Notes: generated from the sequence alone by a model not told the origin. A DNA stretch of 64,000 bases from Octopus sinensis (GCF_006345805.1 NC_043008.1:6758001-6822000); one strand, 5' to 3'. Counted from the stretch's first letter, positions 1,360 through 64,000 are shown. Numbers and translations: made by a program.

Positions 1360-1585
1360 CAAGACGGTGGGCAAGAAGGACCGTTAACACGCCAGGAAAA
1401 ATGCTTAGTACAATTTCTACTGTGTTTACGTTCTGAATTCGAATTCCTTCGAGGTCGACTTAGCCTTTCATCGTTCAGATTCGATAAAACAAGTACCAAT
1501 TGAGCACTGGGGTGGATGTAATCGACTACCTCCTCCCCCACCCCAGAAATTGCTGGTTTTGTGCCAAAATTTGAAATCAGTATTA
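1360..1585 (+). mobile_element. tRNA-headed SINE family A (A3 tail), diverged copy
   Basis: Matches the in-window family A body (gttctgaattcgaattcc..gaggtcgactt.gcctttcatc..gataaaacaagtacca..gagcactgggg). Tail aaattgctgg..tgtgccaaaatttgaaa also seen near 22500, 38345 and 39010. Confidence 0.8.
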
Positions 1586-2720: not shown

Positions 2721-3149
2721 TGAAATATCAATAGGTTACGTTTCTTAATTATTACTAAGTTCCGATTAATTATGCAAACTAGACGTCATTGGCAGCCATA
2801 TTGTAAAACGGATGAGTGGTATGTCATCTACAAAACAAGACTCCAAAACTTCTGTGATCTCTAGAGAGGAATAGAGCAACAGCTAACCACTTGCAGAATC
2901 TGTCTTCACTCCTAGCTACAACTAATTCATTTCATTAACATGGATAATATTTTTGAGGAAGACTTGAATGTCAAATCATCTCATACCACTTCTCTATAAA
3001 CTTGTGACAGACGTGGTACAAATGAAAAACAATGGCGAAAATCTTTTAACCTATACACCAGTTCTTGGTTACTAACCAATTTCACTTTTCAGCCGGTGAT
3101 CCAGCATGGCCGCAGCTCCCGAGTTGAAACTAGTAAAATGAAAATGTCA

Positions 3150-3610
3150 TTTTAATGCCATGAGTATGCTTAGACTAGGCCCGTTCACTGGGGTCATTTG
3201 TGTTACATTCACCAACCTTTTCGCAAAATTGCTGGGCGGCGGCATTTTCCTCTTCCCTCACCTTCCTTTCAGGTGAAACTGGATAAAGCTGATGAGGGCT
3301 TGGCCAAAGAGAAAATTATCTGCCTTTAGCCTTTTCAGTCTGGCCCACCACAAAACCTCTTTCGTTAAGGCCTCCAGACAAAGAAATACTGCTTGCCTTT
3401 TCCGGCCAAATGAAGACTGTGGAGCGATCTTCACGATGGAATTCGGCCGATAGCCGGATCTGTCCTTCACGCAACAGCAGGTATTCGATATAAACCTACA
3501 AGTCAATATTCAGGAACTGGACGAGAGCGTGCAGAACAGTTTCGTCGCTCTATGCACATCTCGGGCAAGCCACCCTTCTATCTTCTCAGTTAGGCGACGA
3601 AGACGACGCC
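3150..3610 (-). pseudogene. L1/Tx1-like LINE ORF2 C-terminal (zinc-finger) fragment, decayed
   Basis: Minus strand reads ACPRCA*SDETVLHALVQ and LTKEVLWWARLKRLKADNFLFGQALISFIQFHLK, homologous to the copy at 53276-54377. Confidence 0.85.
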
Positions 3611-5511
3611 ATTTAAATTTTAGTCTATATTTCGAAAAGAATTATTTTCCTTTCGAAATTTCGCCCCTTAGGGCAAATAACAATAACTTTTGCTCTTACA
3701 AAAAAAAAAAATAATAAAACTAGACTTATAACAATGAAAACAAGTCAATAACTCACGGAGCATTCACGACACGTCTCGTCTTGGCAATAAACAACAACAA
3801 CAACAACAATCATAATTATTCAATTGTTTAGTTTTATGAGAAATACAGTATATCTTTTTTTTGGGTGTTAAAAAAGCTTATCTTTGAGTTGTCACCTACT
3901 GCAAAACCTTCACCCAACGGAAAAAGTAATGTAGTTAAAATGAAATTACTAAAGATTAGTACAAAACCTCATCTCAAAAACATCACTATTTATCCTGTAA
4001 CTCTGATAACAGATCATAGAAAGACTTAATGATAACCTCTCCATCACTGGTCGGGCTAAGAATCGCAACCACAACCTCTTTTGATTGTAACAAGCATCGT
4101 CACTAACTAAATTTTATTCGTCCAAGATTCGAAAATATACTCTTTGTGTGTAGTCTGGGAATGTGAAATGTTGCAAAATGGTTAACTTTGAATTTGGGGC
4201 TCGGACATAAAATGAATATAACATTGGCAAATATTTCCAAATCATTTAGTCATTATCTTCTCTTGTATTAGTACACTGTGTAATGAATTAATTACATTAG
4301 ACATTTCATGCATAATAGAAACTCGAAAATGATATTAAAAAATTATAATCAAAATAGGATTTTGAATTAACATCGATTCGCATAACCAATTTCCGACAAG
4401 TTGAAAGAAACGTTTCTTTTTAGTATGAGAAAGAAAATGAATTCTAGTAGCACTTGAAATATTGGTTATTTAGTTTCGAAGAAATACGTTTCATCCCAGG
4501 AAATTCTTATTAATCAAATAAATGGGCGGGAAGTGTTGGAATATCCTATCAGATTTGTCTTTGTGTTTCAAATCCTACTTTGTCCTCTGGGGAAAGCATT
4601 TACGTATTTAGCATAACTGTTGACAGAGCAGAACTTCGACGCAGACATGGCTCCGGGCGGCGGTTCCTTTCCAGTAATCAGAACAGTTCATTATACACAC
4701 TTGAACTTGGTCTTTTAAGCATTTAAAATAATATATATAGCTGTGCAATGTTTGGTAATCTTTCAGTCATTAATCGATGTTGAAACTCTTTCTTGGTTAC
4801 ATTAAGTGCTACTTCTTTCTTTATTTTTGTTGCGATTATGAAACACCGTTCCTATTTCTGGAATCGAACCACTGTCCGTTCTGTCTGTAAACGTGAACAA
4901 AAACGTGAGAAAAACACATAAAAGACTGGTAACTGACAAATTATTTCTCTGTTCACTGTTACGTCTACATACTTGGTTTTATCAGGACAAAGCGGGATTG
5001 AATATAAAATAACAAATCAGATAAGGGTTTTCATCACAACCCGCCTCCCTACTTGATTAATAATAAAGAATTTCCGGGAAACTAAATAGACTATTCTTCA
5101 AGTGTTCCTACACTTCATATTCGTTCCCATACGAAAAAGTTGTTGTCGTAAATTAGTTGCTTGAATCAAAGTAAATTGACTCAAATAATTTTATTATTTT
5201 TTAATATCATTTTCAAATTTCTATTATCTTGTGGACGCTCGACGTAATTACTTCATTACAGAACGTACTAATACGAGAGAAGATAACGACTAATATGAAA
5301 TATTGTGTTCGTCTTCTGTTCCAATCCTAAATTTGAATTTAGTCAAAGTGCAGCACATCACGCATATACGTACATAAGTATCTGTATATATGTATGTGTA
5401 TAGATCAGCATATTTATACAAATATATATACGTACATAACTATATACATACACCTCCCATATATCTATCTATATATATATACATACACGTATATGAGTAA
5501 ATATTTATCCA

Positions 5512-14538: not shown

Positions 14539-14972
14539 AATATTCTTTTCTACTCTAGGCACAAGGCCCGAATTTTTTTTTGGGGGGGGGGGTGGGGGGG
14601 GGGGGCAGTTGATTAGATCGACCCCAGGACACATCTAGTACTTAATTTATTGACCCTGAAAGGATGAAAGGCGGAATTTGAACTCAGAATCTAATGACAG
14701 ACGAAATAACGCTAAGCATTTCACCCAGTATGCTAACGTTTCTGGCAGCTCGCCGCCTTCACTAATGGTTATATTTTCTACTCTAGACACAAGGCCCGAA
14801 ATTTTGGGGATTAGATTGACCCCAATACGCAAATGGTACTTAATTTATTGAGCTGGAAAGGATGAAAAGCAAAGTCGATCTCGGTGGAATTTGAACTCAG
14901 ATCGTAAACACAGATGAAATACAGCTAAGCATTTCGCTCGGCGTGCTAACGATTCAGCCAGCTCATCGCCTT
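14539..14972 (-). mobile_element. Two tandem SINE A1 copies
   Basis: Both read ctctaggcacaaggcccgaa..gatcgacccc..ggatgaaaggc..ggaatttgaactcagaa..cagctcgccgcctt. The pair is bracketed by a 12-bp direct repeat tcctcaatattc (14534-14545, 14979-14990). Confidence 0.9.
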
Positions 14973-16118: not shown

Positions 16119-16745
16119 TCCTTTCTACTGTAGGCACAAGAACTGAAAATTTGGGGGAGGAGATTACTTCGACCCCACTGCGTAGCTGGTACTTAATTTA
16201 TCGACCCCCAAAGGATGAAACGCGAAGTCGATCTCGGCGGAATTTGAACCCAGAACGTAGCGGCAGACGAAATACCTATTTCTTTATTGCCCACCAGGGG
16301 CTAAACATAGAGAGGACAAACAAGGACAGACAAACGGATTAAGTCGATTATATTGACCCTAGTGTGTAACTGGTACTTAATTGATCGACCCCGAAAGGAT
16401 GAAAGGCAAAGTCGACCTCGGCGGAATTTGAACTCAGAACGTAGTGGCAGACGAAATACCGTTAAGCATTTCGCCCGACGTGCTAACGATTATGCCAGCT
16501 AACCCTTTCTATTATAGGCACAAGGCCTGAAATTTTAGGGGAGGAGATAAGTGGATATCATCGACCCATTACTCAACTGGTACTTATTTTATCGACTCCG
16601 AAAGGATGAAAGACAAAGTCGACCTTGGTGAGATTTGAACTAAGCATTTTCCCCGACGCTAAGCATTTTTCTCTTTTAATTTTGTCCTGGGGCCAACAAT
16701 TTTGAGGAGAGGGACAAAGTCGATGGAATCGACCCTAGTAGTCGA
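16119..16745 (-). mobile_element. SINE A cluster: A1 with nested A2 module (from 16277) plus two further partial copies
   Basis: Family A body repeated. The A2 tail tatttctttattgcccaccaggggctaaac starts right after cagacgaaatacc. Confidence 0.9.
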
Positions 16746-19842: not shown

Positions 19843-20332
19843 GGCTCTCCGTCGGTTACGACAACTAAGGTTTCACTTGATCCGATCAACGGAACAGCTT
19901 GCTCACGAATTTAACATGCAAGTGGCTGAGCACTCCACAGACACGTATACCTATTTCTTTATTACCCACAAGGGGCTAAACACAGAGGGGACAAACAAGG
20001 ACAGACATAGGTATTAAGTCGGTTACATGGGCCCCAGCGCATAACTGGTACTTTATTTATCGACCCCGAGAGGATGAAAGGCAAAGTCGACCCCGGCGGA
20101 ATTTGAACTCAGAACGTAACGACAGACACGTATACCCTTAACGTAGTTCTTGGGGGAGATTCAGCGTGATACAGAGTGTGACAAGGCTGGCCCCTTTGAA
20201 AATACAGGTACAACAGAAACAGGAAGAAATGTTTTCGCTCCATAAACACTCACAGCACCTGGTCTAGGAACCGAAACAGCGATCCTACGACCATCAGTTC
20301 GCCGGCCTAACCACTGGGCCATTGCGCCTCCA
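19843..20332 (-). mobile_element. SINE family C head with tail D, interrupted by a SINE A2 insertion
   Basis: Head (minus) tggaggcgcaatggcccagtggttagg..gtttcggttcc. The tail matches the uninterrupted fragment at 55991-56145. Confidence 0.85.
19952..20121 (-). mobile_element. 5'-truncated SINE A2 with 15-bp target-site duplication
   Basis: Exact direct repeat acagacacgtatacc at 19937-19951 and 20122-20136. Confidence 0.9.
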
Positions 20333-22320: not shown

Positions 22321-22790
22321 TAAGGCGACGAGCTGGCAGAATCGTTACCGCGCCGGGCAGAATACATAGCGGCATTTCTTACGTATCTTAGTTCAAATTC
22401 CACCAAGGCCGACATTGCTTTTTATCCTTTCGGGGTCGATAAAATATGTACCAGTTGAGTACTGGGGTCGATGTAATCAACTAGACTCCTCCCCGAAATT
22501 GCTGGCCTTCTGCCAAAATTTGACACTAATATACAACGTTAAGACAGCGAGCCAGCTGAATGAATAGCACGCCGGGTTAGCGGCATTTCGTCTGCCTTTA
22601 AGTTCTGAGTTCAAATTTCACAGAGGTCATCTTTGCCAGTCAATCTTTCGAGGTCGATAAAATAAGTACCAGTTAAGCACTGGGGTCGATGTAAATTGCT
22701 TAACCCCTTTTTCTAACTTGCCAAAATTTGAAAGTAATATTATAGAAGCTGCTGTTCCGCCGAGGTCGGCGTTGCCTTTCGTCGTTTCGG
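22321..22790 (+). mobile_element. Two tandem SINE A (A3 tail) copies plus a short fragment
   Basis: aaggcgacgagctggcagaatcgtta..ttcaaattcc..cctttcggggtcgataaa..tgccaaaatttga, repeated. Confidence 0.85.
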
Positions 22791-33711: not shown

Positions 33712-33950
33712 TAGCGCAGGAGCGGCTGTGTGGTAAACGGTTGCTTACAAATCACATGTTTCCGGGTTCGTATATATGTATGTGTGTCCGTGTTTGTCCT
33801 CCCCCCTTCAACATCGCTTGACAACCGATGCTGGTGTGTTTACGTTCCCGTTACATTAGCGGTTCAGCAAAAGACACCGATAAAATAAGTACTAGGCTTC
33901 CAGAAAATGAGACCTGGGGTCGATTTGCTCGATTAAAGGCGGTGCTCCAG
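33712..33950 (+). mobile_element. Internally deleted SINE B
   Basis: Head agcgcaggagcggctgtgtggtaa..ccgggttc joined directly to the second half catcgcttgacaaccgatgctgg..ggcggtgctccag. Confidence 0.8.
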
Positions 33951-33954
33951 GGCC

Positions 33955-34338
33955 AGACGATTACACTGACTCCAGTGTTTAACTGGTACTTAATTTATCG
34001 ACCCCGAAACGATAAAAGGCAAAGTCTACCTCGGCGGAATTTGAACTCAGAACATAAAGACAGACGAAATATCGCTAACAGTTTCGCCTGGCGTGCTAAC
34101 GTTTCTATTTCTTTACTACCCACATGGGGCTAAACACAGAGGGGACAAACAAGGACAGACAAACGGATTAAGTCGATTACATCGACCCCAGTGCGTAACT
34201 GGTACTTATTTATTCGACCCAGAAAGGATGAAAGGCAAAGTCGACCTCGGCGGAATTTGAACTCAGAACGTAACGGCAGACGAAATACGGCTACGCATTT
34301 CGCCCGGAGCGCTAACGTTTCTGCCAGCTCTCCACCTC
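33955..34338 (-). mobile_element. SINE A1/A2 nested dimer (junction at 34105/34106)
   Basis: The A2 tail tatttctttactacccac follows gctaacgtttc of the A head. Confidence 0.9.
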
Positions 34339-38159: not shown

Positions 38160-39050
38160 TGAACGACGAGCTGGCAGAATCGTTAGAACGCTGGGAGAAA
38201 TGCTTCTCGGTGTTTCGAACGTCTTTACGTTCTGAGTTCAAATTGCGCAGAGGTCGACTTTGCATTTCATCCTTTCGAGATTGATAAAATAAATACCAGT
38301 TTAGCACTGAAACCAATGTAATTGACTTACCCACTTTTCCGAAATTGCTGGCCTTGTGCAAAAAAATTAAAACCAATATTGAGCTCGCTTAGAGGCAGCG
38401 AGCTAGCAGAATTGTTAGCATGCGGGGGAAAATACTTAGCGGTATTTTGTCTGCTAGCACGTCCTGAGTTCAAATTCCGCAGAGGTCGACCTCGTATTTC
38501 AACCTTTCAGGGTTGATAAAATTAGTACCAGTTGAAAGGCGGCGAGCTAGCAGAAACATTAGCACGCCGGGCGAAATACTTAGGGGTATTTTGTCTGCTG
38601 TTACTTCTGAGTTCAAATTCCGCAGAGGTTGTCTTTGCCTTTCATCCTTTCGGGGTCGATAAATTAAGTACCAGTTATGCACTGGAGTCGATATAATCGA
38701 CTTAATCCGTTTGTCTGTCCTTGTTTGCCCTCTCTTTCTTTAGCCTCTTGTGGGCAATAAAGAAATAAGAAACATTAGTACGCCGGGCGAAATGCTTAGG
38801 GGTATTTCGTCTGCCTTTATGTTGTGAGTTCCAATTTCGCAGAGCTCGTCTATGCCTTTCATCCTTTCGGGGATCGATAACTTAAGTACCTGTTGCGTAC
38901 TGGGGTCGATCTAATCGATTCCCCCCACCGCCAAATTTCGGGCTCTGTGCCTAGAGCGGAAAAGCATAAGTACCAGTTGAGCTCTGGGGTCAACTTAACT
39001 TCTCCACCGAAACTGCTAGCCTTATGCCAAACTTTGAAATCAATATTAAG
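38160..39050 (+). mobile_element. Head-to-tail pile-up of SINE A copies, including an A2/A1 dimer (38536-38960)
   Basis: At least four repeats of gagct.gcagaa..ttctgagttcaaatt..ttcatcctttc.gg.tcgataa. The A2 tail ends at 38767. Confidence 0.9.
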
Positions 39051-40737: not shown

Positions 40738-41080
40738 CGTCTGCCGCTACGTTCTGAGTTCAAATTCCGCCGAGGTCAGCTTTGCCTTTCATAGTTTCGG
40801 GGTCGATTAAATAAGTACCAGTTACGCACTGGGGTCGATATAATCGACTTCATCCGTCTGTCTGTCCTTGTTTGTCCTCCCTGTGTTTAGCCCCTTGTGG
40901 GTGGTAAAGAATTAGGTATTTCGTCTGTCGTTACGTTCTGAGTTCAAATTTCGCTGAAGTTGACTTTGCCTTTCATCCTTTCGGGGTCGATAAATTAAGA
41001 ACCTGCTACGTACTTGGGTCGATCTAATTGACTGGCTCCCCCCCCCCACCAAATTTCGGGCCTTTTGCCTAGTGTAGAAA
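40738..41080 (+). mobile_element. SINE A2/A1 dimer, 5'-truncated
   Basis: A2 tail ..gtgggtggtaaagaatta joined to ggtatttcgtctg at 40915. Confidence 0.9.
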
Positions 41081-50334: not shown

Positions 50335-50460
50335 TTTCTTTCTGTTGAAGAGCGTAGACACGAAACATAAAACACTTTCTCACCTTCCTGAGCATTAAAC
50401 TAATACACATTCTTGTTTATACACCTGTCTTCGTCTTCTGTTTTTCTGTAAATTGCAACT
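50335..50460 (+). mobile_element. Family E pLTR-like repeat
   Basis: tctttctgttgaagagcgtagacacgaaacat..tttttctgtaaattgcaact, running directly into (ATCT)n. Confidence 0.65.
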
Positions 50461-50468
50461 ATCTATCA

Positions 50469-50635
<167 letters not shown>

Positions 50636-50651
50636 GCTATCTATCTATCTA

Positions 50652-50740
<89 letters not shown>

Positions 50741-50784
50741 ATACTTACCTATCTACACACACACGCGCGCAATCCAGTATACCC

Positions 50785-50975
50785 ATTTTTTTACTACCCA
50801 CAAGGGGCTAAAAAAGAGAGGGCAAACAAGGACAGACAAACGGATTAAGTCGTTTACATCGACCCCAGTGCGTAACTGGTACTTAATTTATCGACCCCGA
50901 AAGGATTAAAGGCAAAGTCGACCTCGGCGGAACTTGAACTCAGAAGGTAAAGACGAAATATCGCTAAGGATTTCA
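50785..50975 (-). mobile_element. SINE A2, 5'-truncated, solitary
   Basis: A2 tail ttactacccacaaggggctaaa..caaggacagacaaacggattaag, preceded by gtataccc. Confidence 0.85.
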
Positions 50976-53184: not shown

Positions 53185-53275
<91 letters not shown>

Positions 53276-54377
53276 CGCGAGTGTCGCGTTGCTCTCAAGC
53301 AACTCTGCCGCCGTCCTGGGTCGACCTTAGTGACTTCAACACAACCAAGCATTCTATGGGGTTTAGTGGAGGGGAGGTACGACGACGAGCTCGGGGCGAA
53401 CCTGACGTCGACGAGGAGTACCTGACCCGCCTGTTCGGGACGACTTTTCGGGCCAGGGCCCATGGACAACTTCCAGAGATCCCTGGCCTGGCAGTGCTAC
53501 CGAGAAGCGCTACCCGTTCGGGATAAGCTCTACAGACACGGCTCGAGAAACACGGGGCCGACCTGCCCGAGATGCGGTCAGAGCGACGAAACCGTTCTGC
53601 ACGCACTCGTTCAGTGTCCAACATTTCCGACCTGTGGGCTTATGTCGAACAACTGCTGTCACGTGTGGGACGAGTCGGTTTATCAGCTGAGTCTATCGTC
53701 AATATTGTCACGCGCCTCCTTCCTTCAAACGGGAAGAAAGAGCTATTTTCATCATCCTTGTGGCTATGGCGAAAGAATGTATCTGGTGGACGCGTCTGAA
53801 AGGATTGGAGACAAACACTTTCCTCTCTGGTCAATCTCTCATCAACTTCTTCAAGTACCACTTGAAAAGGAAAGTGAGAGTAGAGAGGCAAGTTTTGTCT
53901 AGCGAATGTTTTAAAAAAAAGATGGGTGAATGTAGCAAGAATGGCACGTATGAATGACGAAGCCACCTTGAGCATAGTCCTATGAACCCAGAAATCGAAA
54001 ACAGAGAGTTGCTTATTTGCAAAAAAAAAAAAAAAAAAAAAAAAGAAATATAAAATGTGACTTCATTGACCAAGGTTACCGTGGTCTTTTCCGTAGGCTT
54101 TTCTTTCACGGGTAAACCTCACCTGTCCTCCCCTTTACACTTCATATTGACATTTCTGTGATAACGATCCTTATTGATCAATTTTTTTTTCCTCTCCCCC
54201 TTTTTTTTTTTTTTAACCCCCCTTTTTTTGTCCTCTTTCTCTCCTTTTACGATCCCTTTTGATCGAAACTCCCCCTTCCTTTTTTTTTTTTTTTTTTTTT
54301 GTTTAAACCTTCAAAAGAAAAGCTCTCCTTGTAATTTGTTCTATCTGTGTGCAGCCCTGTGTGCTAATAAAGAAACA
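53276..54377 (+). mobile_element. 5'-truncated L1/Tx1-like LINE (ORF2 C-terminal zinc finger + 3' UTR) inside (ATCT)n
   Basis: SLAWQCYREALPVRDKLYRHGSRNTGPTCPRCGQSDETVLHALVQC (CCHC, zf-RVT-like), then AKECIWWTRLKG. Frameshifted. T-rich UTR ends aataaagaaa. (TCTA)n on both flanks. Confidence 0.9.
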
Positions 54378-54409
<32 letters not shown>

Positions 54410-54461
54410 ATCTATCTATCTCAGTATATATATAATGTGTGTGTGTATTTTTTTTTTTATT

Positions 54462-59217: not shown

Positions 59218-59830
59218 TTTTTCTTTATTGGCCAGAAGAGCCAATAAAAAAGTACTGCAAACATAGGCAGTATGCAAACCAGGAAAACACAGAGTTTGCT
59301 CATATACACAGATTTACATAGATAAACGGAAAACAAAAATGTAATGCGGTAACGAGGAGGTTTATCAATGAATACTTCCCCAAAAGGTGTGAGGGGCGTG
59401 ACTTTGATGGCTAGCCCTGGAAATCCTACAAAAGCATGGTTATCCTGGCCTTTTAAGAAAGCGCTTTTCCCATTCTATCCTTTTAAAATATAAAAGCGCA
59501 TGCTCAAAGCAGGCACGTTCACTTGAATAATGATCGCCACTCTCATTCACATTTAAACGGATTTGCTGGATGACAGCACATCTCTCTTCGCCCTCACATT
59601 TTTTTTTGAATTGAAATCTGAAAAAGTTGGTGTGAGTTTGACCAAAGAGGAAAGTGTCTGCCTTCAGCCCTCCCAGTCTCGTCCAGCATACAGCCTCTTT
59701 TTTCGATGTGGCCAACAGACAGCAAAAGGCATTTTGACTCGTAAACTTAACTACTGACTGAATCGACTTTGCAAGCACTCAGTAATGAAGTGGACAATTG
59801 TCTCCTCGTGCTGATTATATAACCTGCATT
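59218..59830 (-). pseudogene. L1/Tx1-like LINE 3' fragment, third copy
   Basis: KEAVCWTRLGGLKADTFLFGQTHTNFFRFQFKKK is homologous to the 53760 frame. The minus-strand 3' end is ggccaataaagaaaaaa. Confidence 0.8.
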
Positions 59831-62180: not shown

Positions 62181-62563
62181 TTTCTACTCTAGGCACAAGG
62201 CCCGAAATTTTGGTGGAGGGGGCCAGTCGATTAGATCGACCCCACTACGCATCTGGTAGTTAATTTATTGACCCAGAAAGGATAAAAGGCAAAGTCGACC
62301 TCGGCGGAATTTGAACTCAGAACATAAAGACAGACGAACTACCTATTTCTATTTCTTTACTACCCACAAGGGGCTAAACACAGAGAGGACACACAAGGAC
62401 AGACGAACGGATCAAATCGATTATATCGACCCCAGTGCGTAACTGGTACTTAATTTATCGACCCCGAAAGGATAAAAGGCAAAGTCGACCTCGACGGAAT
62501 TTGAACTTAGAACATAAAGACAGACGAACTACCGCTCAGCATTTCGCCCGGCATGCAAACGTT
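62181..62563 (-). mobile_element. SINE A1/A2 nested dimer (junction at 62343/62344)
   Basis: cagacgaactacc occurs on both sides of the A2 module. Confidence 0.9.
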
Positions 62564-64000
62564 TGGAGGCAATACAATTTTAAGCATGTGTTTTAGCTAT
62601 TTTGTGTTTTGCCATACAATTACCAAAGTTTAAATTCTGTCTGTCTGTCTGTCTGTCTCTCACACACACATAATTGGCTTATATACAATATACACATTTG
62701 TGTGTGCGTGGGTGCCTTTTCTGCTTAAATATGTAAACATGCACTAATGAAATACTAATATAAATATATATATTATATGGTGAAATGTGTATATGTGCAG
62801 AAAGAAGTGTGTGTGTTTGTATGAGAGAGTAAGAGAGAGACAGAGAGAGAGAAAGAGAGAGAGACAGAGAGAGACAGAGAAAGAGAGAGAGAGAGAGAGA
62901 AATAAGGAGAGAAAGAAAGAGATGAACGAATGAGATGGTGTAAAATTGTCTGCAGCCAAGAGGAAGGAGAATGCATGTCTCGAATGATTTGCGATATAGT
63001 ATTTAGGTTCGGGAGATTGGTTATTATATCGAACCAGCAAACGATGAATTGTAAAACAGAACCAAAAACATAGGAGAAGAATAACAACATCAACAAAAGC
63101 GGGATATTTGAAAAAAAAAAAGAAAAAGTAAAGAAAAATCCCCCTCCTAAATTGCGAAGTAAAACGGAGGTGTCATGATTACTTCCGGAAATAATGCGAA
63201 ATTCACTAAATTCGTGGAAGGTTTAATTTGAAATAAATTAACTGAGTTATAAAACATTTGAGAACAATTGTGACTATTATGAAGATTTGAATATGCAATA
63301 AATATGAGTTTGGTTTAATAACACTCCATTTAAAAATCTTTCCTTTTGTAATTGAATAATCAGTTTAAATATTCAAATAAAAATGAAATAATTACGTGAT
63401 TTGTTTTTGGTATAATGTTGCGTTTAATTATAATTAAGCGAAATTATAAAAAATGCAAAAAGTAGTCCAAACTTTGGAACGATGTAGTGACACACAGCGT
63501 ATAACCATATTGACCCTTTATCTAAAGAGATGGCTATTGGTCTTCTTAAATATCTCTCTGCCTTCCCATGCCCTCTGTCCCCCTCTCTTCCCTCTCAGAT
63601 ACATAAATACAAACGTACAGAAGAATCGTTTGAAAGTCATAATATCCATAATCTCCCGTTCCTCTAGATTAGAGGTGCACCCTCTTTGCTGTAGATATAA
63701 TACATAGCGTTTGATTGAAAGCCATGAGTTCAATCGCATTTTCTCGACATCTTTTATCACAAAACAAGTCATTGACTTTCATCCAGAGAAACTATGTCGT
63801 TCACCGATATATGGCCAAATAGTTCTACACACACACACATTTATTCATTCATAAGCCTGAGGGAGAGAGAGAGAGAGATGGGAGGAGGAGGGGGTATATA
63901 TCGTTCAGAGATGAGAGAAACGCAAATGTACCCTACCACATATGTCCATTTTAAGAATGAATATCCGAGTGAAACAAGAGTAAAGGCCTGGGAAAGCCAC

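What the first reader, a model, noticed from the sequence alone, without database searches (positions are those of the whole stretch)
54327..54380. SINE A2 shares its 3' tail with the L1/Tx1-like LINE: candidate SINE-LINE partner pair
Seen: LINE end ccttgtaatttgttctatctgtgtgcagccctgtgtgctaataaagaaa. A2 ends are ccttgtttgtcctccctgtgtttagccccttgtgggtggtaaagaa (40867-40912) and ccttgtttgccctctctttctttagcctcttgtgggcaataaagaaa (38719-38765). Established: SINEs borrow the 3' end of the LINE that mobilises them, mostly L2/CR1/RTE, and many Tx1-clade elements are sequence-specific. Inference: A2 is mobilised by a Tx1-like family, which could explain its target bias.
Basis: partly seen in the sequence, partly recalled or inferred. 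Interest (0 to 1): 0.75.

Follow-up and report, generated by a model that had tools for sequence, protein, structure and literature searches.

The report
SINE tail shared with Tx1-like LINEs
An abundant ~230-base SINE in this octopus-like genome ends in a ~50-base tail that matches the 3' end of a group of related L1/Tx1-like LINEs, so one or more of these LINEs likely copies it, but the LINE in this window is not clearly the one, because the two insert at different kinds of sites.

Summary
The LINE 3' end (54327-54377) and the A2 SINE ends align co-terminally: 38 identical of 47 aligned bases plus one 3-base gap. This is z = 10 against dinucleotide shuffles, and z = 4.6 with AATAAAGAAA removed. 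In a 664-kb random genome sample, the best non-A2 matches to the A2 tail are the two copies of this LINE's end.

- The LINE has an APE endonuclease, an RT and a zf-RVT domain. Its closest solved structure is human L1 ORF2p. It sits inside (TATC)n microsatellites, as Tx1-clade microsatellite specialists do.
- At least eight related LINE families, most of them in other microsatellites, share the tail: a TG-rich stretch, a 4-bp hairpin with compensatory changes, then AATAAAGAAAYA. So does a 0.9-kb non-coding retroposon.
- A2's tail is about equally close (81-83%) to several of these families. The window's young family is not the closest (76%).
- Target sites differ. None of 107 A2 copies lies in (TATC)n. 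A2 inserts before GGTAT, and 11 of 37 random copies sit at one site inside other SINE copies.

Verdict: real tail homology, and a new SINE-LINE pairing of a known kind. Which family drives A2 is unresolved.

The parts
53276..54377 (+). 5'-truncated copy of the L1/Tx1-like LINE, called 'LINE-(TATC)' here: the ORF2 C-terminal part plus the 3' UTR
   Evidence: 96.4% identical over 1125 columns to positions 2761-3875 of a full-length natural copy, L042. tblastn hits to ORF2 residues 911-1145.
54327..54377 (+). LINE 3' terminal module: TG-rich stretch, hairpin AGC(C)/loop/GCT, then AATAAAGAAACA. This is the finding itself.
   Evidence: This window copy lacks one G of the 3' stem that 18 of the 20 copies have.
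53185..53275 (+). (TCTA)22.8 microsatellite directly upstream of the LINE's 5' junction
   Evidence: Tandem Repeats Finder. The same arrangement is seen in 12 of 14 copies with a resolvable 5' junction.
54378..54421 (+). (TATC)11.2 microsatellite directly downstream of the LINE tail
   Evidence: 18 of 20 copies start TATCTATC after the tail.
38535..38767 (+). Full-length A2 SINE copy. Its tail is 38719-38765, then TA.
38768..38918 (+). Remainder of the older SINE copy that the A2 at 38535-38767 sits in. It restarts at AGAAACATTAG and repeats private variants of the upstream part.
40738..40914 (+). A2 copy with tail 40867-40912. It is followed at 40916-41033 by the target SINE resuming at GGTATTTCGTCTG.
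34106..34337 (-). Full-length A2 copy of the young subfamily (CCCCATGTGGGTAGTAAAGAAATA). It is followed by SINE remainder at 33955-34106.
   Evidence: Five other genomic copies are 100% identical and 34 are 98-99% identical over 83 nt.
16277..16500 (-). A2 copy (GGGCAATAAAGAAATA variant), followed by SINE remainder at 16162-16275
19952..20127 (-). A2 3' part inserted in a different repeat, with a duplicated GGTATACGTGTCTGT on both sides
50785..50974 (-). 5'-truncated A2 copy in non-SINE DNA. The downstream flank starts TGGGTATAC.
62350..62564 (-). A2 copy whose tail end GAAATA is repeated once, followed by SINE remainder at 62225-62342
59218..59772 (-). Remnant of a more distant LINE relative carrying the same 3' module (GGCTCTTCTGGCCAATAAAGAAA)
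   Evidence: tblastn 39% over 66 aa, E 4.7e-7. Sequence.

Best explanation
SINE A2 carries at its 3' end a ~50-nt module (TG-rich stretch, 4-bp hairpin, AATAAAGAAAYA) that it shares with a group of related L1/Tx1-like LINE families, including the (TATC)n-resident LINE at 53276-54377. A2 is likely mobilised in trans by the reverse transcriptase of one or more members of that group, which is predicted to recognise this module.

Shown:
- The homology, its co-terminal position and its conservation across LINE families.
- A2 is a retroposed element with target-site duplications and 5' truncations.
- Both A2 and the LINE have very young copies.
- The LINE lies inside (TATC)n.
- A2 inserts before GGTAT, often at one site inside other SINE copies.

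Inferred:
- The module is the RT recognition element.
- The module passed from LINE to SINE.
- A2 depends on this LINE group.

Unresolved: which family supplies the enzyme. A2's tail is about equally distant from several families, and its target motif matches none of those sampled.
For: 1. Co-terminal similarity: 38/47 identities plus a 3-nt gap, z = 10.1. The best place in the whole LINE on either strand is its 3' end, z = 8.0. Without AATAAAGAAA, z = 4.6, with 2 of 2000 shuffles reaching the score.

2. Smith-Waterman scan of a 664-kb random sample, both strands. After 51 A2 copies and 2 truncated A2 tails, the top hits are the two LINE-(TATC) ends (scores 40 and 37). Low-complexity partial matches follow (33, 31, 29), level with the tails of two other families of the same group (29, 29). 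No other repeat scored higher.

3. The module sits at the 3' end of ORF2-bearing relatives that are 33-86% identical in protein: L153, L154, L145, L110, L083+, L078 (a more diverged form), win59587 and LINE-X. It is therefore ancestral to the LINE group, which argues for LINE-to-SINE transfer.

4. Hairpin: 34 of 36 cells pair across nine 5-nt-loop sequences, and 2 of 4 pairs show changes on both sides (GC/AU/GU; GC/CG). 3 of 500 shuffles reach the covariation score, and slid controls pair at most 50%.

5. A2 behaves as a retroposon. TSDs of 7-21 bp occur in 12 of 15 full-length, non-nested young copies (11 scored, plus L049 by eye in the output). TA follows AAAGAAA in 35-36 of 37 copies.

6. 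Overlapping activity. Full-length LINE copies are 98.1-99.1% identical, with an intact 1149-codon frame. A young A2 subfamily is 98-100% identical over 83 nt in 40 copies.

7. Precedent. Tx1-clade LINEs are often target-specific, including for microsatellites, and are thought to mobilise SINEs (passages of PMC4494074).
Against: 1. Target profiles differ. The LINE is followed by TATCTATC in 18 of 20 copies and preceded by (TATC)n in 12 of 14. A2 is in (TATC)n in 0 of 37 random-sample copies and 0 of 70 copies in the young-copy loci.

2. All 28 genome-wide matches to a GGCT-stem tail joined to the SINE hot spot are A2 variants. None is a LINE.

3. The window's young family is not the closest tail. 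LINE-X scores 50 (39/47), L153 49 (35/42) and L154 48, against 40 (38/50). The non-coding F157 retroposon is closest at 47/55.

4. LINE-X, the best-scoring autonomous family, is followed by GGATG in 22 of 30 copies, not by A2's GGTAT.

5. Folding energies of the tails are not better than shuffles (z from -1.8 to +0.65). The minimum-energy folds of A2 and F157 do not use the hairpin.

6. No experiment shows trans-mobilisation.

7. The survey of LINE families was partial. Other clades reported as active in octopus (RTE, CR1, Dong-R4; PMC13282606) were checked only through the random-sample scan.
Confidence: 0.6

Rival explanations
1. The window's (TATC)n-resident LINE family is itself A2's current driver. 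The sites differ because target choice would be set largely by pairing between the 3' end of the template RNA and the nicked DNA. That end would be (UAUC)n read-through for the LINE and UA-GGUAU... for A2.
For: - Among the families sampled, it is the one with clearly intact and near-identical full-length copies: 98.1-99.1% identity and a 1149-codon frame. It is therefore contemporary with the young A2 subfamily.
- Its two copies are the best non-A2 hits in the unbiased sample.
- Non-autonomous elements have flank motifs of their own. F157's tail is 44/46 identical to LINE-X's, yet it lacks LINE-X's GGATG flank. So the flank motif need not report the partner's endonuclease.
Against: - Tail identity is lower (76%) than for other families.
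- No A2 copy is in (TATC)n (0 of 107), although such arrays should be good substrates.
- For APE-type site-specific LINEs the endonuclease is described as the main determinant of target choice (passage of PMC4494074).
Confidence: 0.22
2. The tail similarity is historical only. A2 took its tail from an ancestor of this LINE group but is now, or was during its main expansion, mobilised by an unrelated LINE clade such as RTE, CR1 or Dong-R4.
For: - Other clades are reported as recently active in a related octopus (Table 1 passage of PMC13282606).
- Most SINE copies with the same body carry other tails. 123 of 190 body hits end at positions 150-179 instead of the A2 tail, so tail exchange happens in this SINE lineage.
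- The A2 target motif matches no sampled member of the group.
Against: - The A2 tail is conserved along its length, including the hairpin with compensatory changes and TAAAGAAATA in 35-36 of 37 copies. This suggests selection on the module in source copies.
- No other repeat in the 664-kb sample matches the tail better.
Confidence: 0.12
3. The direction is the reverse: the LINE captured an A2 tail, for example through an A2 insertion at its 3' end.
For: A2 is far more abundant. There were 37 A2 tails and 2 LINE-(TATC) tails in 664 kb, so insertions of A2 into LINEs are frequent.
Against: - The module is present in LINE families only 33-65% identical in ORF2, each with its own surrounding 3' UTR.
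- None of these LINE ends carries any SINE body sequence.
- AATAAA is a plausible polyadenylation signal for a Pol II transcript. It has decayed to AGTAAA in young A2.
Confidence: 0.04
4. Chance resemblance of two T/G-rich ends that both carry AATAAA.
For: Both tails are compositionally biased.
Against: z = 10.1 and z = 4.6 against dinucleotide-preserving shuffles, the co-terminal position, and intermediate families.
Confidence: 0.01

Closest known systems
Stringent-type SINE-LINE pairs that share a 3' tail. The principle is stated in PMC4494074 citing Kajikawa and Okada 2002 (passage). The classic examples are recalled, not read here.
   Same: A short non-coding retroposon whose last ~50 nt are homologous and co-terminal with the 3' end of a LINE in the same genome. 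Both have young copies.
   Different: - The LINE side is a whole group of L1/Tx1-like families with one conserved module, not a single L2/CR1/RTE partner.
- The terminal repeats and target sites are not shared.
- No assay has been done.
SINEU and Tx1-Mar in crocodilians (Kojima 2015, PMC4494074; abstract and passages read)
   Same: A SINE proposed to be mobilised by Tx1-type LINEs. It has a strong preference for inserting into another repeat family.
   Different: - There the link rests on a target preference shared by SINE and LINE. Here the link rests on the shared tail, while target preferences differ.
- The A2 head is not snRNA-derived.
Kibi and Koshi, Tx1-clade LINEs specific for (TC)n and (TTC)n (Kojima and Fujiwara 2004, as described in PMC4494074)
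   Same: APE-type LINEs of the L1/Tx1 kind, found inside one microsatellite type on both flanks.
   Different: - The target here is (TATC)n. Sister families lie next to (TA)n, (ATT)n, (ACT)n or (CAT)n, or before GGATG.
- The host is a cephalopod rather than a fish.
- Clade placement was not tested on a tree.
Octopus tRNA-CORE SINEs such as OR1 (Ohshima and Okada 1994, as cited in PMC4824008; 'tRNA-Core and tRNA-Deu' as the main octopus SINEs in PMC8967140)
   Same: An abundant octopod SINE about 230 nt long, with a B-box-like GAGTTCAAATTCC.
   Different: I did not compare A2 with OR1 or a CORE consensus, because no reference sequence was available. Rfam and ARAGORN found no tRNA in A2.

Membership tests
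SINE-LINE partner pair with common 3' tail | The SINE 3' tail is homologous and co-terminal with the LINE 3' end, beyond chance | tested here: met
   38/47 identities plus a 3-nt gap, z = 10.1. The best site in the whole LINE is its 3' end. z = 4.6 without AATAAAGAAA.
SINE-LINE partner pair with common 3' tail | This LINE is the best match to the SINE tail among the LINEs of the genome | tested here: not met
   LINE-X scores 50 (39/47), L153 49 and L154 48, against 40 (38/50) for the window's family. Within a random 664-kb sample, however, its two copies are the best non-A2 hits. The survey of families is incomplete.
SINE-LINE partner pair with common 3' tail | Same terminal repeats or target-site profile | tested here: not met
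   LINE: TATCTATC downstream in 18 of 20 and (TATC)n upstream in 12 of 14. A2: 0 of 37 and 0 of 70 in (TATC)n, with the flank starting TA-GGTAT. All 28 hot-spot junctions with a GGCT stem are A2.
SINE-LINE partner pair with common 3' tail | Overlapping periods of activity in the same genome | tested here: met
   LINE full-length copies are 98.1-99.1% identical. A young A2 subfamily is 98-100% identical over 83 nt. The bulk of A2 is older, with median 91.1% identity to the majority sequence, n = 37.
SINE-LINE partner pair with common 3' tail | Trans-mobilisation of the SINE by the LINE protein, dependent on the tail | not testable with these tools
   Needs a retrotransposition assay.
Tx1 clade of non-LTR retrotransposons | L1-group architecture: N-terminal APE endonuclease, RT and a C-terminal zinc knuckle | tested here: met
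   Pfam Exo_endo_phos 8.2e-16, RVT_1 1.1e-30 and zf-RVT 2e-07 on the 1149-aa frame. Human L1 ORF2p is the best solved relative over residues 6-877, E 2.5e-53, against R2 at 3e-20.
Tx1 clade of non-LTR retrotransposons | The RT domain groups with Tx1 references rather than L1 in a phylogeny | not testable with these tools
   No named Tx1 or L1 reference sequences could be brought into the tools. Homologue and Atlas searches returned unnamed or 'hypothetical' proteins. Indirect support: octopus L1-like LINEs are annotated 'L1-Tx1' in PMC13282606 and PMC8967140 (passages).
Tx1 clade of non-LTR retrotransposons | Sequence-specific insertion (frequent in the clade but not universal) | tested here: met
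   (TATC)n on both flanks. Tandem LINE copies lie within one array (L041).
SINE | Short, non-coding, high copy number, with a defined 5' end and TSDs | tested here: met
   About 230 nt. 37 tails in 664 kb, which extrapolates to roughly 150,000 per 2.72 Gb. TSDs in 12 of 15 copies.
SINE | Head derived from a tRNA, 7SL or 5S gene with an internal Pol III promoter | tested here: inconclusive
   No Rfam match at E <= 1 and no ARAGORN tRNA in a full-length copy. A B-box-like GAGTTCAAATTCC is visible in the sequence.

The most novel reading that the evidence does not exclude
In this LINE group, target choice is carried by the template RNA rather than by the endonuclease alone. Every family sharing the one 3' module has its own short motif directly after AAAGAAAYW, and that motif starts the target-site duplication:
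- LINE-(TATC): TATC repeats
- LINE-X: GGATG
- A2: GGTAT
- F157: AGTAG-like

This holds even for the two families that encode no protein. Read-through of that motif into the next transcript would let it pair with matching nicked DNA. The result would be a heritable 'target memory'. It would also explain why A2 keeps nesting at GGTATTTCGTCTG inside SINE copies and builds ~184-nt tandem arrays.
Probability: 0.2. Interest if true: 0.75.

Novelty: new member of a known kind. Interest (0 to 1): 0.5.

Why it matters
SINEs make up about a tenth of octopus genomes (11.6% in O. vulgaris, passage of PMC13282606) and most are listed there as unclassified. My three literature searches with octopus terms (and 41 for Tx1 and microsatellites) found no paper that names their LINE partner.

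Tying one major SINE tail to an L1/Tx1-like LINE group gives a concrete, testable candidate for what drove that expansion. It would add a stringent, tail-sharing partnership on the L1 side of the LINE tree, where poly(A)-based relaxed recognition is the textbook case.

The family-specific flank motifs of protein-less members offer a way to ask how much of a site-specific LINE's targeting comes from RNA pairing rather than from its endonuclease.

Tried and rejected
- **MAFFT alignments of all 15 tails.** These put the length difference at the 5' edge instead of in the loop, so 6-nt-loop and 5-nt-loop hairpins fell out of register. I counted pairs only on the nine 5-nt-loop sequences. The five 6-nt-loop LINE-(TATC)-lineage sequences were left out of that count. 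By eye they read AGCC/GGCT in 3 and AGCC/GGCC with an A-C mismatch in 2.
- **Thermodynamic folding.** It gave no signal.
- **Rfam and ARAGORN.** Neither gave a tRNA head.
- **Clade label.** The Atlas and homologue searches gave no clade label, and an RT tree with named L1 and Tx1 references could not be built.
- **Earlier-findings look-ups.** All returned nothing.
- **'Dimeric SINE' reading.** I considered that 'A2' might be one half of a fixed dimeric SINE, because it is so often followed by a partial SINE. I rejected this for three reasons: the downstream restart point varies (GGTAT or AGAAAC), A2 also occurs with ordinary TSDs in unique DNA and in another repeat, and in the copy at 38535 the duplicated segment carries the target's private variants on both sides.
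- **TAGGTAT as part of the A2 element.** I considered this and rejected it because TSDs begin right after TA and include GGTA(T/G) (L072, L073, L066, L049).
- **F157 as the missing autonomous partner.** I rejected this because it is about 0.9 kb with a defined 5' end, its longest open frame is 105 codons, and it has no ORF2 similarity.

Full report
**What is at the coordinates**

The quoted sequences are where the finding says.
- The LINE end runs from 54327 to ...AATAAAGAAA at 54375, then CA. A (TATC)11 array follows from 54378.
- The LINE fragment itself spans 53276-54377. It is 96.4% identical to the 3' 1.1 kb of a full-length natural copy.
- A (TCTA)22.8 array sits directly upstream, at 53185-53275.
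- The genome is 2.72 Gb.
- The closest named protein hit to the LINE's ORF2 is from the octopod Argonauta hians, at 67% identity.

**The LINE**

The 131-nt 3' end has more than 1100 first-look candidates in the genome. The 40 that were scored are 95-100% identical. An RT query gave 46,118 first-look candidates. The 116 scored include frames of 1149 codons without stops.

Four fetched copies are 98.1-99.1% identical over 3.6-3.7 kb. The 1149-codon frame carries Exo_endo_phos (E 8.2e-16), RVT_1 (1.1e-30) and zf-RVT (2e-07). An upstream 470-codon frame has only a sub-threshold zf-CCHC hit.

Human L1 ORF2p is the best solved relative over residues 6-877 (E 2.5e-53), against 3e-20 for R2 proteins. 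The element is therefore of the L1 group.

I could not test L1 against Tx1 on a tree, because no named reference sequences could be brought into the tools. Two octopus repeat papers annotate the L1-like LINEs of octopus as 'L1-Tx1', with 13 recently active families in O. vulgaris (passages).

**The LINE's insertion sites**

- All 20 tails examined end ...AATAAAGAAACA, and 18 continue TATCTATC.
- Of the 14 copies whose 5' junction lay inside the fetched locus, 12 have (TATC)n directly upstream. The other 6 ran to the locus edge and were not counted.
- One locus holds two copies in tandem within one array.

This is the behaviour described for microsatellite-specific Tx1-clade elements such as Kibi and Koshi (passage of PMC4494074).

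**Is the similarity real?**

The A2 tail aligns to the LINE's very end with 38 identities over 47 aligned bases and one 3-base gap (score 40).
- 1000 dinucleotide shuffles give 14.6 +/- 2.5, max 25, z = 10.1.
- Against the whole 3887-nt LINE on both strands, the 3' end is the best place. 300 shuffles give 20.6 +/- 2.4, max 34, z = 8.0.
- With the last 14 nt removed, the score of 26 is reached by 2 of 2000 shuffles, z = 4.6.

I fetched 60 random 10-kb stretches plus the window, 664 kb in all, and scanned them by Smith-Waterman with the A2 tail. This found 51 A2 copies and 2 truncated A2 tails. Next came the two LINE-(TATC) ends (scores 40 and 37). Low-complexity partial matches followed (33, 31, 29), level with the tails of two other LINEs of the same group (29, 29).

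**The tail is a group property**

Other ORF2-bearing relatives end in the same module: a TG-rich stretch, a short hairpin, then AATAAAGAAAYW. Each has its own surrounding UTR and its own flank.

| Family | ORF2 identity to the window's family | Flank after the tail |
|---|---|---|
| L153 | 86% | (TA)n |
| L154 | 73-76% | (TATC)n |
| L135, L152 (same tail and 3' UTR type as L154; no ORF2 hit in the 1.5 kb fetched) | - | (TATC)n in L135; unique DNA in L152 |
| L145 | 39-65% | - |
| L110 | 33-55% | (ATT)n |
| L083+ | 37-46% | (ATT)n |
| L078 | 59% | (ATT)n; its module is more diverged |
| Window 59218-59772 | 39% | - |

Further truncated elements with the module lie next to (CAT)n, (ACT)n or (ATA)n. 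The pattern GGCYAATAAAGAAATA occurs 428 times in the genome, against 9 for its reversed control. Of the first 30 places, 20 are A2 variants, 6 are the LINE-(TATC) lineage and 4 are other families.

One of those 4 led to F157, a ~0.9-kb non-coding retroposon.
- It has at least 235 candidate copies and a defined 5' end.
- Its longest frame is 105 codons, and it shows no ORF2 similarity.

A pattern from F157's tail has 141 matches. The first 30 split into 17 F157, 11 copies of a further autonomous family (called LINE-X here) and 2 truncated copies. LINE-X's ORF2 C-terminus is 50-57% identical to the window family's.

**Which family is closest to A2?**

Scored the same way, the A2 tail gives:

| Compared tail | Identities | Score |
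|---|---|---|
| F157 | 47/55 | 66 |
| LINE-X | 39/47 | 50 |
| L153 | 35/42 | 49 |
| L154 | 36/44 | 48 |
| Window's young family | 38/50 | 40 |
| L110, L145 | - | 31 |

F157 and LINE-X are 44/46 identical, so they are an obvious pair. A2 is thus about equally distant (81-83%) from several autonomous families. The window's family is not singled out. Older A2 copies read GGGCAATAAAGAAATA. This shares AATAAAGAAATA exactly with the older LINE subfamilies, whereas the young LINE has ...ACA and the young A2 has AGTAAAG.

**Structure**

Directly before A[AG]TAAAG, every family can form a 4-bp stem with a 4-6-nt loop. On the nine sequences with 5-nt loops:
- 34 of 36 cells pair.
- Two of the four pairs change on both sides (GC/AU/GU, and GC to CG in A2).
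- 3 of 500 shuffles reach the covariation score.
- Slid registers pair at most 50%.

The five 6-nt-loop sequences were left out because MAFFT would not place the gap in the loop. Folding energies are no better than shuffles (z from -1.8 to +0.65). The hairpin is in the minimum-energy fold of four of the six tails folded, but not of A2 or F157. The structural evidence is therefore modest.

**A2 as an element**

- The SINE body gives 190 hits covering 3.9% of the 664-kb sample. 37 hits carry the A2 tail and 123 end at positions 150-179 with other tails.
- A2 tails are 83-100% identical to the majority sequence, median 91.1%.
- A young subfamily exists: 40 copies are 98-100% identical over 83 nt.
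- After AAAGAAA the next two bases are T in 36 of 37 copies and A in 35 of 37, so the element ends ...AAAGAAATA.
- TSDs of 7-21 bp start right after that TA in 12 of 15 full-length, non-nested young copies. Eleven were scored by the script and one was read by eye from its output.
- Rfam and ARAGORN find no tRNA in A2.

**A2's target bias**

The bias is real but is not the LINE's. None of the 37 random-sample copies lies in (TATC)n, and none of the 70 copies in the young-copy loci does.

The flank after TA starts GG in about two thirds of copies and then TAT. Eleven of the 37 random-sample copies sit at one position inside another SINE copy (...TAGC^GGTATTTCGTCTG), and two more at ...GGC^AGAAACG. 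With at most 190 such sites in 664 kb, uniform insertion would put well under 0.1% of copies there.

In these nested copies the sequence upstream of the site runs on seamlessly, as expected if the 5' junction forms by homology. Repeated nesting or unequal exchange gives arrays with a ~184-nt period (L071, L057, L050).

A search for a GGCT-stem tail joined to the hot spot found 28 places, all of them A2 variants. LINE-X is followed by GGATG in 22 of 30 copies, with TSDs starting right after its terminal TT. F157 has AGTAG-like flanks. Two of its 18 distinct copies, and one more, lie in SINEs at A2's two hot spots.

**Reading**

- Shown: a homologous, co-terminal, conserved 3' module shared by A2, F157 and a diverse L1/Tx1-like LINE group, and retroposon hallmarks for A2.
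- Inferred: the module is what the group's RT recognises, A2 took it from a member of the group, and A2 is mobilised by one or more members.
- Open: which member. This is open because tail distance does not discriminate between families and target motifs do not match.

Even protein-less members have their own flank motif. F157 shows this clearly, with a tail nearly identical to LINE-X's. That suggests the template RNA's 3' end may help choose the site. I rate this idea at about 0.2.

**Novelty**

Tail-sharing SINE-LINE pairs, Tx1-mobilised SINEs and microsatellite-specific Tx1 elements are all known (PMC4494074, passages). My searches found no paper naming a LINE partner for octopus SINEs. Supplements were not examined. 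This is a new member of a known kind, of moderate interest.

Noticed in passing
L165-L186, e.g. L177:1062-1971 (minus strand); not in the window: F157 is a ~0.9-kb purine-rich, non-coding retroposon with at least 235 candidate copies and a defined 5' end. Its tail is 44/46 identical to that of LINE-X and 47/55 to A2. Its flanks are AGTAG-like. A few copies lie at A2's two SINE hot spots.
   Followed up: partly
L217, L224, L228, L231, L233, L234, L237-L239, L241, L244, L245-L274: LINE-X is an autonomous relative of the window's LINE (ORF2 C-terminus 50-57% identical). It is not in microsatellites. Its tail ...AAAGAAATT is followed by GGATG in 22 of 30 copies. Seven of the 30 share the flank GGATGTAGAGGGTTTGTTGGACACAG, which suggests a preferred site in another repeat.
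   Followed up: partly
L071, L057, L050; window 38164-38918: Tandem arrays of A2 3' units have a period of about 184 nt. Each unit ends ...AAAGAAA(T/C)AG and restarts at GTATTTCG. Units within one array share private variants, so unequal exchange as well as repeated nesting may build them.
   Followed up: no
window 1361-1527, 14607-14972, 22322-22714, 38164-38533 and others: SINE copies have the same head and body as A2 but a different 3' tail (…GGCCCCCTCCACCAAAATTTCGGGCCTTGTGCCTAGAGTAGAAA). 123 of 190 body hits in the random sample end before the A2 tail. The SINE lineage has therefore swapped tails, and the other tail may point to another LINE partner.
   Followed up: no
window 3159-3567 (minus strand): Remnant of another LINE relative (42% over 103 aa to the ORF2 C-terminus). 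No recognisable tail module lies within 900 nt downstream.
   Followed up: partly
window 33780-33840; L097:5629: The start of a different repeat, TGTGTGTC(C/T)GTGTTTGTCC...CAACATCGCTTGACAACCGATG, partly matches the TG-rich part of the A2 tail (scores 28-31).
   Followed up: no
window 19850-19950 and 20128-20170 (minus strand): Another repeat (…GGTATACGTGTCTGTGGAGTGCTCAGCCACTTGCATG…) was hit by an A2 insertion at a GGTATACG site with a ~15-nt duplication. Its head resembles the SINE region around the hot spot.
   Followed up: no
window 50400-50850, 53185-53275, 54378-54421: Long (TATC)n/(TGTC)n arrays are frequent in this window and next to LINE copies elsewhere. The LINE may both use these arrays and help spread them.
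   Followed up: no
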